From Candidatus Jordarchaeales archaeon (GTDB lineage: Archaea; Asgardarchaeota; Jordiarchaeia; Jordiarchaeales; Freyrarchaeaceae), in contig JAWCFL010000001.1 of the NCBI GenBank assembly GCA_038858525.1, positions 139,172 through 171,171 on the forward strand: DNA of 32,000 nucleotides, read 5' to 3'. The position numbers and the translations under genes are program-made. The notes below the pieces were generated by a model. It saw only the letters and a list, made by a program, of their open reading frames with translations. It had not been told where the DNA came from and ran no database searches. How positions within the stretch are numbered: the first letter of the stretch is position 1; the number at the start of each line of letters is the position of its first letter. Below, in pieces: positions 5,455 through 10,091 of this stretch.

Positions 5455-6171
5455 CCGAGAGATTGATGTTCCCATCCGTAGCGTCCTACGAGAGGGACGA
5501 AGGCTACCGGGCCATAGTTTCTTTTCTTAACTTTGCCTTCCTCGTCCTTCTCAACCAAAACAAGTACCTGATTGTAGTAAAATTGGCCGACGGGTATCAC
5601 CATGCGTCCATTTGGCGCTAACTGAATAAGGAGGGGCTCAGGAATAGATGGGCCGGCGGCGGTCACTAGTATAGCATTGTAAGGTGCCTCTGGAGGATAT
5701 CCAAGAGTGCCATCACCCAGAATAACTGTCACCCTGTCTCCGTAGCCGGTTTTCTCCAAATTACGTTTAGCAAATTCGACCAGTTCTTCTAATCGTTCTA
5801 TCGTATATACATGACCACGTTTCCCTCCTTCGGGAGCGACTATTTCGGCGCATAACGCAGCGTGATAACCCGACCCTGCCCCAACCTCGAGAACCTTCAT
5901 TCCCTCACGTAGCTTTAGAAGGTCACACATGAGAACGCACATATTTCGCCTAGAGAAGTTAATAAGCTTCTCTATGTGGCGCAGATATGGTCTGTCCTCC
6001 CGGTATGGGGAGAGGGCGATCATCATAAGCAGAGTCTCTTAACTCGTCAGGAACGAAATCCTCTCTAGGAACCTTCATGAACGCTCTAATTACAGCTTCG
6101 TCCTTAACAAAGCCTTCTAATTTAAGCCGCTCTATAAGGGCTTTCTTTTTCTCCAAAAGAGATTCATTCAA
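5451..6171 (-). CDS. pcm: Protein-L-isoaspartate O-methyltransferase, two exons (6171-5976 and 5944-5451), 229 aa after splicing
   Basis: N-terminal ORF (VPREDFVP...[17 protein letters not shown]) and C-terminal ORF ([43 protein letters not shown]) join in frame when 5945-5975 is removed. Confidence 0.93.
5945..5975 (-). other. 31-nt BHB intron in pcm mRNA
   Basis: Minus strand CGCC AC^A TAGAGAAG CTTATTAA CTTCTCTA GGCG AA^A: 4-bp central helix CGCC/GGCG, two 3-nt bulges and an 8-bp intron helix. Contains an in-frame TAA. Confidence 0.9.
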
Positions 6172-8008: not shown

Positions 8009-8295
8009 ATGCTCAATTAATCCAAACATGAAACTAACAAAGCCCTAAAGAAACACAAACAATCTAAAGCACATGAACATCTTTCTCTTAAGATAAGATT
8101 TAAAGAGGAGACTTTAGACCCATCCTCTGAAGAAAGGAGGGAGATGGAAATATAAGTATTTAACCAAATAGTTTTTAATAAAACGTGATGAACTTGCTAA
8201 ATTGGCGGTTTTACCGATTAAAGGAATAGGTTAACGATGAAGCTCTAAATTTTACCTTGAGAGAGCTGCATATTTAAAGGGCAAGGTGATGAAGG

Positions 8296-10091
8296 ATGAG
8301 GCTACGATCGCCTATAGCTGTTGTTTTGGGGCACATAGATCATGGCAAATCATAGCACGGCTTCGTGCTATGGGCTAAACACTTTTACTAGATGCGATTA
8401 GGGGGACAGCCGTTCAAGCTAAGGAGGCAGGCGGGATCACCCAGCATATAGGTGCATCCTTTCTGCCTGCAGACGTCATAATGACTTTCGCTGAGGACTT
8501 GGCCGAAAAATTTAACGTGAAGCTGACTATTCCCGGCGTGCTAGTCCTAGATACACCCGGGCATGAAGCCTTTTTTAACCTCAGGACGCGAGGGGGAGCG
8601 ATCGCAGACATTGCCATACTGGTTGTTGACGTGATTCGCGGCTTCCAAACGCAGACATACGAGTGCATTAACTTGTTGAGAAGTAGGCGTGTCCCATTTT
8701 TAATTGCCGCAAACAAAGTGGATTTAATCCCCGGCTGGCGCCCCTCTGGCTCTAAGTCTATTCTTAAAGCTATAGAGGTTCAGGAAGAACACGTCAAACG
8801 AGCTTTAGACGAAAAAATATATGAATTAATAGGAGAACTTTCCGCGTGCGGCTTTAATTCTGAACGGATCGACAGGGTGCGTGATTTTACCAGAACTGTT
8901 GCCATAGTTCCCACGAGCGCCAAGACAAAGGAGGGTATCGCTGAACTAATGGTTGTGCTGGCTGGATTAACCCAACAGTACATGAAGAAGAAGCTGACAG
9001 TCTCTGAGGGAGAAGGCAAGGGCGTTGTTTTGGAAGTTAGGGAGGAACCTGGTCTCGGTATAACCATAGACGCCATTCTTTATGATGGAGTCCTCCGCAG
9101 GGATGACCTCTTAGTAATAGGCGGACTCGATGGCGCTGTCGTGACAAGAATTAGGGCGTTACTGCAGCCTAAACCACTAGACGAAATGAGGGACCCAAGA
9201 GAAAGGTTCGACTCGGTGAGTGAAGTAGCCGCTGCGGCTGGTGTAAAAATCGCGGCGCCTCACCTTGAAAAAGTTGTGGCCGGTGCGCCATTAAGAGCCG
9301 TGCGTGACGAGGAGAAAGTGAAGGAGGTCGAGTTGGAAGTTCAGCAAGAAGTGGAAAGCATAACCATAAAGGGAGACCGTGTGGGAGTTGTAGTCAAGGC
9401 CGATACGCTTGGGTCGCTAGAGGCGCTGGTGAACTTCTTCAGGGAGAGAGGGATAACCATTAGAATAGCGGATATAGGTGATGTAGCTAAAAGGGACGTG
9501 ATGGAGGCGGCCGTCGTAGCTGAGAAGGACCCTCTTCAAGCGGTTATCCTAGCTTTCAACGTTAAAATTTTGCCTGACGCAGAGGAAGAAGCCAAGAAGT
9601 ACGGCATTAAAATTTTTGAAGAAAAGATAATTTACAGGTTATTCGAGAATTATAATGAGTGGGTTTCAGAGAAGAAGGAAGAAATGAGACGGAGAGCTAT
9701 TGAGGGCTTAGTTAAGCCAGCAAAGATAAAGATCCTTCCAGGATACGTTTTTAGGCATAGTAAGCCTGCCATCGTCGGGGTGGAGGTTCTTTCAGGAGAG
9801 ATTAAGCCGAAGTATCCTTTGATGAAGGAGGATGGTCAAGAGATCGGAGAGATACTGCAAATACAGGATAAAGGAGAGGCAAGGGCGTACGCGCGGAGAG
9901 GGGAACAAGTTGCGGTCTCGATTAGGGGGCCTACTGTTGGGAGGCAGATCGATGAGGGGGACATACTTTATACGAGTATGCCGTTAAGTCATATAGAGAA
10001 GTTTAAAGCCGAGCTAGTAGAAGAACTTACATCAGACGAGCTTGAAACGCTTAAAGAAATCGAGAGCGTGAAAAAGCAAAGGAGAGCGTAA
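8296..10091 (+). CDS. infB: Translation initiation factor aIF5B (IF2), two exons (8296-8349 and 8379-10091), 588 aa after splicing
   Basis: Exon 1 MRLRSPIAVVLGHIDHGK joins exon 2 TLLLDAIRGT..EAGGITQHIGAS..DTPGHEAF..NKVD. The ORF track misses the first exon and the start of the second. Confidence 0.93.
8350..8378 (+). other. 29-nt relaxed-BHB intron in infB mRNA
   Basis: GGCA AA^T CATAGCACG GCTT CGTGCTATG GGCT AA^A: 9-bp intron helix, central helix with 3 of 4 pairs (one A.G), bulges in BHB register. Contains an in-frame TAG. Confidence 0.82.

What the first reader, a model, noticed from the sequence alone, without database searches (positions are those of the whole stretch)
8350..8378. 29-nt hairpin intron inside the GTP-binding P-loop of aIF5B
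Seen: GHIDHGK is followed by TCATAG (Ser, stop) and a perfect 9-bp hairpin CATAGCACG/CGTGCTATG, after which TLLLDAIRGT resumes in another frame. Removing 8350-8378 gives GHIDHGK-TLLLD and a 588-aa protein. The cut sites are in exact BHB register, but the central helix has one A.G mismatch and there is no outer exon helix, so the motif is relaxed. Established: aIF5B is a universally conserved initiation factor, and this K|T junction is where the Methanocaldococcus jannaschii IF2 intein sits (recalled, to be confirmed). Inference: two kinds of intervening sequence target the same invariant site. A suboptimal BHB could make aIF5B output sensitive to EndA activity, which would give a regulatory link between RNA processing and translation initiation.
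Basis: partly seen in the sequence, partly recalled or inferred. Interest (0 to 1): 0.9.

Follow-up and report, generated by a model that had tools for sequence, protein, structure and literature searches.

The report
tRNA-type mini-intron splitting Asgard aIF5B
The only gene for the essential translation factor aIF5B in this hot-spring Asgard archaeon (Jordarchaeia) is split inside its GTP-binding loop by a 29-base hairpin that looks like a tRNA-type intron, so its mRNA very probably has to be cut and rejoined before the protein can be made.

Summary
The single aIF5B gene reads MRLRSPIAVVLGHIDHGK (8296-8349). A 29-nt insert follows (8350-8378) with an in-frame TAG and a perfect 9-bp hairpin. 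The gene resumes out of frame as TLLLDAIRGT... (8379-10091). Removing the 29 nt gives a 588-aa protein colinear with the uninterrupted ortholog of the sister genus.

The same insert occurs in all five sequence lineages of this Jordarchaeia genus, from independent assemblies. It is absent from the sister genus, from six Freyrarchaeaceae-like genomes, and from every other Asgard aIF5B I could inspect. Only 2 of its 29 positions vary, both unpaired, whereas 87% of fourfold-degenerate sites in the gene vary. Exon 1 is still under protein-level selection.

The genome has two EndA paralogs (one catalytic-type, one lacking the catalytic His) and RtcB. The best reading is a relaxed bulge-helix-bulge (BHB) intron.

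Caveats:
- No RNA evidence was found by any of five routes.
- The productive register has an A.G mismatch and no outer helix.
- A better-paired register would remove 31 nt, out of frame.
- The intein-site and regulatory ideas remain untested.

This scan had already reported the same intron type in other genes of this genome. The published literature I searched describes only cbf5 and one Haloferax 5' UTR.

The parts
8285..8289 (+). Shine-Dalgarno-like GGTGA, 6 nt upstream of the start codon
   Evidence: Read from the sequence. A GGTGA or GAGGTG motif lies at a similar distance in the other four lineages. Its function is inferred.
8296..8349 (+). aIF5B exon 1: 18 codons, MRLRSPIAVVLGHIDHGK, ending with the P-loop Lys
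   Evidence: It is identical or 17/18 identical to the N-terminus of the intronless ortholog P0007. Across five lineages, 12 of 18 third codon positions vary but only 2 of 18 first and 2 of 18 second positions.
8344..8347 (+). Exon half of the central helix (GGCA) in the frame-restoring BHB register
   Evidence: Pairs G8344:U8376, G8345:C8375 and C8346:G8374, with A8347 opposite G8373 as a mismatch. The synonymous site C8346 is invariant in five lineages.
8348..8350 (+). 5' bulge (AAU here; AAA or AGA in relatives); predicted cut after 8349
   Evidence: Positions 8349 (A/G) and 8350 (U/A) vary among lineages, as expected for unpaired bases. The cut site is inferred from the canonical rule, which I checked on the canonical site-2 intron.
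8350..8378 (+). 29-nt intervening sequence (candidate BHB intron) with an in-frame TAG at 8353-8355
   Evidence: It is present in five lineages with only 2 of 29 positions variable, against 87% of fourfold sites. It is unique in the genome.
8351..8372 (+). Intron helix h': perfect 9-bp stem (8351-8359 / 8364-8372) with the 4-nt loop GCUU (8360-8363)
   Evidence: z = -5.0. The stem is invariant in all lineages, and the only change is loop position 8361 (C/U).
8373..8376 (+). Intron half of the central helix (GGCU)
   Evidence: Invariant in all lineages.
8377..8379 (+). 3' bulge (AAA); predicted cut after 8378
   Evidence: Inferred from the BHB rule. No outer helix closes this bulge.
8379..10091 (+). 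aIF5B exon 2: 570 codons plus stop, starting TLLLDAIRGT
   Evidence: Precomputed Pfam domains are GTP_EFTU, IF-2 and GTP_EFTU_D4, and sources name relatives 'translation initiation factor IF-2/5B'. It is the only aIF5B match in the genome.

Best explanation
Positions 8350-8378 are an archaeal bulge-helix-bulge (tRNA-type) intron inside the aIF5B pre-mRNA.

Proposed mechanism: the transcript folds so that exon bases GGCA (8344-8347) pair imperfectly with intron bases GGCU (8373-8376), next to a perfect 9-bp intron hairpin. The two-subunit splicing endonuclease EndA cuts in the two A-rich 3-nt bulges. RtcB joins GGCAAA to ACACUU. This restores the Walker A motif GHIDHGK-T and a 588-aa aIF5B.

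Shown here: the insert, its structure, its conservation, its lineage distribution and the presence of the enzymes. Inferred: removal at the RNA level, the enzymes responsible and the exact cut sites. The intron was most parsimoniously gained in the ancestor of this Jordarchaeia genus.
For: 1. The gene is single-copy in a 92.7%-complete genome.
2. Removing 29 nt gives a protein colinear, with no gap or extra residue, with the intact 590-aa ortholog of the sister genus.
3. The identical-length insert sits at the same site in five distinct lineages of the genus, from independent NCBI, JGI and Logan assemblies. It is absent from the other genus of the family and from the six genomes of the other family of the class.
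4. Only 2 of 29 insert positions vary, both in predicted unpaired bases, while 175 of 202 fourfold sites vary (binomial P about 8e-22). Exon nucleotide identity between lineages is only 76-91%.
5. Both exons are under purifying selection. Variable columns are 17.5% / 12.8% / 79.9% by codon position for the whole gene and 2/18, 2/18, 12/18 for exon 1.
6. The hairpin has z = -5.0.
7. Its layout, 1 + stem + loop + stem + 4 + 2 nt with AA|A at the 3' end, matches the pcm insert in this window and other ORF-restoring inserts in the genome.
8. The genome has two EndA paralogs. One is most similar to the catalytic subunits of crenarchaeal heterotetramers; the other has Ala in place of the catalytic His. 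It also has one RtcB.
9. aIF5B of three other Asgard families carries a different intron (GGI|TQHIG) with a canonical hBHBh' motif and 8 of 18 pairs showing compensatory changes. BHB introns in this gene are therefore real in Asgard archaea.
10. Relaxed motifs in an mRNA context are documented substrates of heterotetrameric EndA in the cbf5 case (PMC2738675).
Against: No direct RNA evidence exists for this intron.

In the only register that restores the frame, the central helix has 3 pairs plus an A.G mismatch and no outer helix. [quoted passage not shown]

The thermodynamically best fold has a perfect 4-bp helix, UGGC/GCUA. Under the canonical rule it predicts a 31-nt, frame-breaking excision. 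The invariant synonymous U8343 fits that helix.

The stem shows no compensatory substitutions (it is simply invariant), so covariation neither supports nor contradicts the fold.

The intron lies only 54 nt after the start codon. In a cell with coupled transcription and translation, ribosomes could reach the in-frame TAG before splicing.
Confidence: 0.85

Rival explanations
1. The insert is removed from the RNA, but not by the standard EndA rule at the predicted sites. Either another nuclease/ligase pair acts, or EndA uses both registers, so that part of the transcripts lose 31 nt and become unproductive.
For: The minimum-free-energy structure has a perfect 4-bp helix in the unproductive register. 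The synonymous U8343 that closes it is invariant. G8373 is invariant even though a U there would give a perfect productive helix.
Against: In three of five lineages position 8350 is A, so the tenth stem pair of the alternative register cannot form. Strong purifying selection on the protein requires a substantial productive fraction. No data show any 31-nt product.
Confidence: 0.07
2. Translational recoding. Ribosomes bypass or frameshift across the 29 nt, as in T4 gene 60 hopping, which also uses a hairpin with a stop codon at its base.
For: A stable hairpin starts one base after the Lys codon, with a stop codon two codons later. An AAA triplet lies at the 3' end of the insert.
Against: Landing of the Lys tRNA on AAA 8377-8379 would continue as CAC UUU UAC UAG, which is out of frame with a stop after three codons. 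The frame-correct landing triplet is UAA (8376-8378), which is not cognate. Read-through plus a frameshift would insert about 10 residues between the Walker A Lys and Thr. The architecture matches the genome's other BHB-type inserts.
Confidence: 0.03
3. The gene is broken, or works as a truncated protein translated from an internal start. That is how annotation pipelines call it (536-568 aa products).
For: Public annotations of all relatives start the protein after the insert.
Against: A truncated product would lack the P-loop Gly-Lys needed for GTP binding. Exon 1 keeps its ATG, an SD-like motif and an amino-acid sequence under purifying selection, with 12 of 18 synonymous positions changed. 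The insert is far more conserved than neutral sites. There is no second copy. The state has persisted across lineages whose synonymous sites are saturated.
Confidence: 0.03
4. Assembly or sequencing artefact.
For: The genome is a metagenome-assembled genome with 63 contigs.
Against: The same 29 nt occur in independent assemblies from different samples and pipelines: four species genomes, the QC4 record, NCBI GCA records, two JGI metagenomes and two Logan runs.
Confidence: 0.01

Closest known systems
cbf5 pre-mRNA BHB intron of Crenarchaeota (Watanabe 2002; Yokobori 2009, PMC2738675)
   Same: A short intron in a protein-coding gene, at a conserved motif, often with a relaxed BHB. It is cleaved by a heterotetrameric (alpha-beta)2 EndA, has a lineage-restricted gain/loss pattern, and differs by very few substitutions between close strains.
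   Different: The host gene is aIF5B, not cbf5, and the phylum is Asgard, not Crenarchaeota. The intron sits in the Walker A loop only 18 codons from the start. Splicing here is inferred, whereas cbf5 splicing was shown experimentally.
Non-canonical tRNA introns of Asgard Jordiarchaeia and Atabeyarchaeia (PMC11291895; preprint 10.64898/2026.10.13.758758)
   Same: The same lineage and presumably the same EndA/RtcB machinery. These are short introns at BHB or relaxed-BHB boundaries, gained repeatedly.
   Different: Those papers describe tRNA genes only. The preprint text has no occurrence of 'mRNA'. Here the host is an mRNA, so the intron interrupts a reading frame.
Second aIF5B intron (between GGI and TQHIG) in three other Asgard families, found here
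   Same: The same gene and the same G domain. Sizes are 29-33 nt with the same 1 + stem + loop + stem + 4 + 2 layout.
   Different: The site differs (switch I region). The motif is a canonical hBHBh' with a 4-bp central helix and an outer helix, and it has clear compensatory changes. The P-loop intron has neither an outer helix nor covariation.
BHB intron in the 5' UTR of HVO_1309 mRNA, Haloferax volcanii (PMC7714728)
   Same: An mRNA processed by the tRNA splicing endonuclease.
   Different: It lies in an untranslated region, so it does not interrupt a reading frame.
HAC1/XBP1 unconventional mRNA splicing (IRE1 nuclease plus RtcB-type ligase)
   Same: It works alike: protein-only, spliceosome-independent excision of a small hairpin-flanked intron, a change of reading frame, and RtcB-type ligation. 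This rests on established knowledge; RtcB's role in XBP1 splicing is mentioned in PMC8718801.
   Different: The nuclease is different (IRE1, not EndA). That splicing is stress-regulated, and there is no evidence of regulation here.
Inteins in euryarchaeal aIF5B/IF-2 (COG0532)
   Same: Another kind of intervening sequence in the same protein family. Inteins often sit in P-loops (PMC4760082; 'intein free' P. abyssi aIF5B in PMC9226500).
   Different: Inteins are removed at the protein level and are hundreds of residues long. I could not verify that the insertion point is identical (K|T).

Membership tests
Archaeal BHB intron (EndA/RtcB-spliced) | [quoted passage not shown] | tested here: inconclusive
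   In the frame-restoring register there are 3 pairs (G:U, G:C, C:G) plus an A8347.G8373 mismatch. This is the 'relaxed' class, which is common by chance. A perfect 4-bp helix exists one base out of register but predicts a 31-nt excision.
Archaeal BHB intron (EndA/RtcB-spliced) | At least one flanking helix (h' within the intron, or h between the exons) | tested here: met
   h' is a perfect 9-bp stem, 8351-8359/8364-8372, with z = -5.0. The outer helix h is absent.
Archaeal BHB intron (EndA/RtcB-spliced) | Excision at the predicted sites restores a functional, colinear product | tested here: met
   The product is GHIDHGK|TLLLD and 588 aa. It is colinear with the intronless P0007 of the sister genus.
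Archaeal BHB intron (EndA/RtcB-spliced) | The host encodes a splicing endonuclease able to cut relaxed motifs, and an RtcB ligase | tested here: met
   Two PF01974 genes and one PF01139 gene are present. One EndA paralog resembles crenarchaeal catalytic subunits, and the other has His replaced by Ala. Their activity was not tested.
Archaeal BHB intron (EndA/RtcB-spliced) | Spliced RNA, or a circular or linear excised intron, is observed | tested here: inconclusive
   The junction pattern gave 0 hits in metagenome contigs. No close relative was found there. No 588-aa or partial spliced product was found in three protein searches or among cluster members. This is absence of data, not evidence of absence.
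Archaeal BHB intron (EndA/RtcB-spliced) | The evolutionary pattern fits an RNA structure: changes fall in unpaired bases or are compensatory | tested here: met
   All three variable positions in or next to the insert (8349, 8350 and 8361) are in bulge or loop bases. The helices are invariant, and there is no covariation to count.
aIF5B / IF-2 translational GTPase (COG0532) | GTP_EFTU G domain with the GHxDxGKT P-loop, plus IF-2 and domain IV | tested here: met
   Precomputed Pfam domains are PF00009, PF11987 and PF14578. Source names read 'translation initiation factor IF-2/5B'. The P-loop is complete only after the 29 nt are removed.
Programmed translational bypass (T4 gene 60 type) | Matching take-off and landing codons that put the ribosome in the correct downstream frame | tested here: not met
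   The only AAA landing site (8377-8379) leads to CAC UUU UAC UAG. The in-frame landing triplet is UAA.
Intein, group I intron or group II intron | An in-frame protein-splicing domain, or a ribozyme of hundreds of nucleotides | tested here: not met
   The insert is 29 nt, contains a stop codon and is not a multiple of three. Rfam finds nothing in the window.

The most novel reading that the evidence does not exclude
The conserved imperfection may be functional. An invariant G8373 gives an A.G mismatch in the productive register and a perfect helix in an unproductive one. EndA would then choose between a 29-nt productive and a 31-nt frame-breaking excision, or would compete with ribosomes that reach the intron 54 nt after the start codon. 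Production of the subunit-joining factor aIF5B would then be tuned by splicing. That would be a regulated, unproductive-splicing circuit in an Asgard archaeon, within a genome where many core genes need tRNA-type splicing.
Probability: 0.08. Interest if true: 0.9.

Novelty: new member of a known kind. Interest (0 to 1): 0.72.

Why it matters
For over twenty years the only documented archaeal intron inside a protein-coding sequence has been the one in cbf5 of Crenarchaeota. A 2020 study stated this explicitly and added only a 5' UTR case.

A tRNA-type intron in the Walker A loop of a universal, single-copy initiation factor would make translation initiation depend on the tRNA-splicing enzymes. 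[quoted passage not shown]

Taken with the other interrupted genes this scan has flagged in the same genome, it suggests that mRNA splicing is routine in Jordarchaeia. That raises a question: how does a cell without a nucleus keep ribosomes off unspliced messages?

There is also a practical consequence. Public annotations of this gene in all relatives are N-terminally truncated (536-568 aa) and lack the P-loop.

Tried and rejected
Searches for RNA evidence found nothing:
- A degenerate exon-exon junction pattern gave 0 hits in metagenome contigs.
- The search for related loci in metagenome contigs found no close relative.
- The full-length protein search and the cluster members showed only N-terminally truncated 536-568-aa calls in the genus.
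- Two searches for short or partial spliced products (66-210 aa and 143-455 aa) found nothing above 71% and 63% identity.

Intron mobility: the hairpin has no other copy in the genome within 3 mismatches.

Genome-wide scan: I scanned for hairpins in BHB register that restore ORFs. The criteria were too noisy for a census or for the rate of 3-of-4 central helices. The 4/4 class passed at 6.3% against 5.0% in shifted controls, and the known pcm intron was missed. I use the scan only for a few examples of the shared layout.

Intein site: four paper searches and several look-ups confirmed inteins in archaeal aIF5B and in P-loops generally, but not the K|T position in M. jannaschii.

Other checks that led nowhere:
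- Terminator or attenuator: the TTTT after the hairpin is not conserved in relatives.
- Known RNA family: Rfam finds nothing in the window.
- ARAGORN finds no tRNA in the window.

Bypass, frameshift, pseudogene and artefact readings are rejected, as set out under the rival explanations.

Full report
**What is in the sequence**

On the + strand an ORF starts at ATG 8296, six bases after a GGTGA motif. It reads MRLRSPIAVVLGHIDHGK up to 8349. The next codons are TCA TAG.

Positions 8351-8359 (CATAGCACG) and 8364-8372 (CGTGCTATG) form a perfect 9-bp hairpin around the loop GCTT. From 8379, in another frame, a 570-codon frame begins TLLLDAIRGTAVQAKEAGGITQHIG and runs to the stop at 10089-10091.

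Deleting 8350-8378 (29 nt) joins GGCAAA to ACACTT and gives a 588-aa protein with an intact Walker A motif, GHIDHGKT. Because of the A run, cut pairs shifted one or two bases to the left give the same product. The hairpin region folds much better than shuffled sequence (z = -5.0, 0 of 200 shuffles).

**Organism and copy number**

The window lies in a 2.09-Mb, 63-contig, 92.7%-complete genome. Relatives are named Candidatus Jordarchaeia or Jordarchaeales, which are Asgard archaea. This is the only aIF5B match in the genome.

**Distribution**

All four species genomes of the genus have the interruption at the same place. With additional contigs from NCBI, JGI and Logan assemblies, there are five distinct sequence lineages.

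The one genome of the sister genus reads GHIDHGKTALLDAIRGT without interruption, in a 590-aa protein. So do the six genomes of the other family in the class.

Among 372 Asgard genomes with a match, only this genus has an open frame that begins exactly at the first residue of exon 2. Only the best 150 or so rows of that table were visible. The simplest history is one gain in the ancestor of the genus.

**Conservation**

Between the five lineages the exons are only 76-91% identical at the nucleotide level. 175 of 202 fourfold-degenerate sites vary. The 29-nt insert varies at just two positions:
- 8350 (U or A), which is the third base of the predicted 5' bulge;
- 8361 (C or U), which is in the hairpin loop.

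One lineage also has AAG instead of AAA for the last exon-1 codon, again a bulge base.

The chance of seeing 2 or fewer variable sites in 29 at the fourfold rate is about 8e-22. The insert is even more conserved than second codon positions (12.8%). The divergence runs right up to both boundaries, so recent gene conversion does not explain the conservation.

The exons are under protein-level selection. Variable columns are 17.5%, 12.8% and 79.9% by codon position for the whole gene. In the 18 codons of exon 1 alone the counts are 2, 2 and 12. Exon 1 is therefore still translated as part of a functional protein. This rules out a pseudogene, an artefact, or a truncated P-loop-less product.

**Structure**

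I checked the canonical BHB rule on an independent example found here. The rule: four exon bases pair with the four intron bases that precede the last two intron bases, and the cut falls after the second base of each 3-nt bulge.

In three other Asgard families, aIF5B carries a different intron between GGI and TQHIG. It is 29, 30 or 33 nt long. Its consensus fold is a textbook hBHBh' motif, and 8 of 18 pairs show compensatory changes. The rule gives exactly the required junction there.

Applied to the P-loop insert, the frame-restoring register is:
- central helix, exon half: GGCA 8344-8347;
- 5' bulge: 8348-8350;
- intron helix h': 9 bp;
- central helix, intron half: GGCU 8373-8376;
- 3' bulge: AAA 8377-8379.

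The central helix then has G:U, G:C and C:G pairs plus an A.G mismatch, and no outer exon helix exists.

Two cautions apply. [quoted passage not shown] The register alone is therefore weak evidence, and by my rough estimate the placement of the hairpin plus 3 of 4 pairs is worth about P = 0.06. Second, the minimum-free-energy fold uses a register shifted by one base. It has a perfect 4-bp helix, UGGC 8343-8346 with GCUA 8374-8377, and in two lineages a tenth stem pair, U8350:G8373. Canonical cutting there would remove 31 nt and break the frame.

In three lineages position 8350 is A, which weakens that alternative. However, the synonymous site U8343 is invariant, and G8373 is invariant although U would perfect the productive helix. 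I cannot tell from sequence which cuts are made. The functional argument requires that the productive excision happens.

**Machinery**

The genome has two genes with the tRNA-intron endonuclease domain and one RtcB gene. One EndA paralog (191 aa) is most similar to the catalytic subunits of crenarchaeal heterotetrameric enzymes. The other (198 aa) is 32% identical to it and has Ala where the catalytic His aligns.

[quoted passage not shown] This type is documented to cut relaxed motifs outside a tRNA context, including the cbf5 pre-mRNA (PMC2738675).

The insert has the same layout (1 + stem + loop + stem + 4 + 2 nt, ending AA|A) as the pcm insert at 5945-5975 on the minus strand. It also matches several other ORF-restoring inserts in the genome.

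**Rivals**

T4 gene 60-style bypassing fails. Landing on the AAA at 8377-8379 continues CAC UUU UAC UAG, and the in-frame landing triplet is UAA. Read-through with a frameshift would put about ten residues into the Walker A loop. No terminator-like T run is conserved after the hairpin. Rfam finds nothing in the window.

**What is missing**

I found no RNA-level evidence. The junction pattern had no hit in metagenome contigs, and no close relative was present there. No full-length or partial spliced product appears in the protein collections. All public gene calls in the genus are truncated after the insert. This is absence of data for a moderately expressed gene of a rare organism, not evidence against splicing.

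Papers confirm that euryarchaeal aIF5B genes carry inteins: COG0532 with 15 inteins in PMC4760082, and 'intein free' P. abyssi aIF5B in PMC9226500. They also confirm that inteins favour P-loops. I could not verify that the M. jannaschii intein sits exactly between K and T. The idea that a suboptimal motif couples aIF5B output to EndA activity is untested. The only relevant fact is that the imperfection is conserved.

**Comparison and novelty**

The closest known case is the cbf5 intron of Crenarchaeota. A 2020 study states that it was the only BHB intron reported in an archaeal mRNA, and adds a 5' UTR case in Haloferax. Papers on Asgard introns in the library deal with tRNA genes only.

Earlier notes of this scan had already reported the same kind of intron in other genes of this genome: ppsA, gatE, EndoQ, an Fe-S gene, cbf5, rpl44e and aIF2-gamma. 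Two of these were reported with RNA-derived contigs. I did not re-test those, and they are not independent support.

I file this as a new member of a known kind, with 0.85 confidence that it is an RNA-level spliced BHB-type intron.

Noticed in passing
L008:1549-1605, L012:1549-1605, L050:432-488, L051:438-494, L015:3136-3189 (minus), L047:1764-1816 (minus), L048:504-556, L049:488-540: A second, different aIF5B intron lies between GGI and TQHIG (switch I region) in three other Asgard families. It is 29, 30 or 33 nt long, has a canonical hBHBh' motif, and shows compensatory changes in 8 of 18 pairs.
   Followed up: partly
window 8344-8351 and 8373-8380: Both intron boundaries carry nearly the same 8 nt: GGCAAAWC at the 5' boundary and GGCTAAAC at the 3' boundary. 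This probably follows from a near-palindromic central helix and A-rich bulges, but it could bear on how the intron arose.
   Followed up: no
window 8350-8355: The first intron codon is TCA (Ser) or ACA (Thr) in different lineages. The unspliced frame therefore still reads a complete GHIDHGK[S/T] Walker A motif before the TAG. This may be coincidence.
   Followed up: no
window 5945-5975 (minus strand): A 31-nt insert in the pcm (protein-isoaspartate methyltransferase) gene has a 4-bp G-C central helix (CGCC/GGCG), an 8-bp stem and AA|A at its 3' end. Removing it joins ...SAPH to MC....
   Followed up: partly
ARAGORN and Rfam both find nothing in the window, so standard tools miss it if it is real.
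   Followed up: no
G000 contigs C1:177181-177211, C2:6356-6386, C2:68772-68802, C3:105834-105865 (all + strand): These 30-31-nt hairpin inserts have 4-of-4 central helices and AA at their 3' ends. Removing them fuses open frames of 282-655 codons. They are likely further mRNA introns, and the first is probably the cbf5 intron noted earlier.
   Followed up: no
P0001-P0006 (public gene calls for this gene in the genus): All public annotations start aIF5B after the insert (536-568 aa) and so lack the P-loop.
   Followed up: yes
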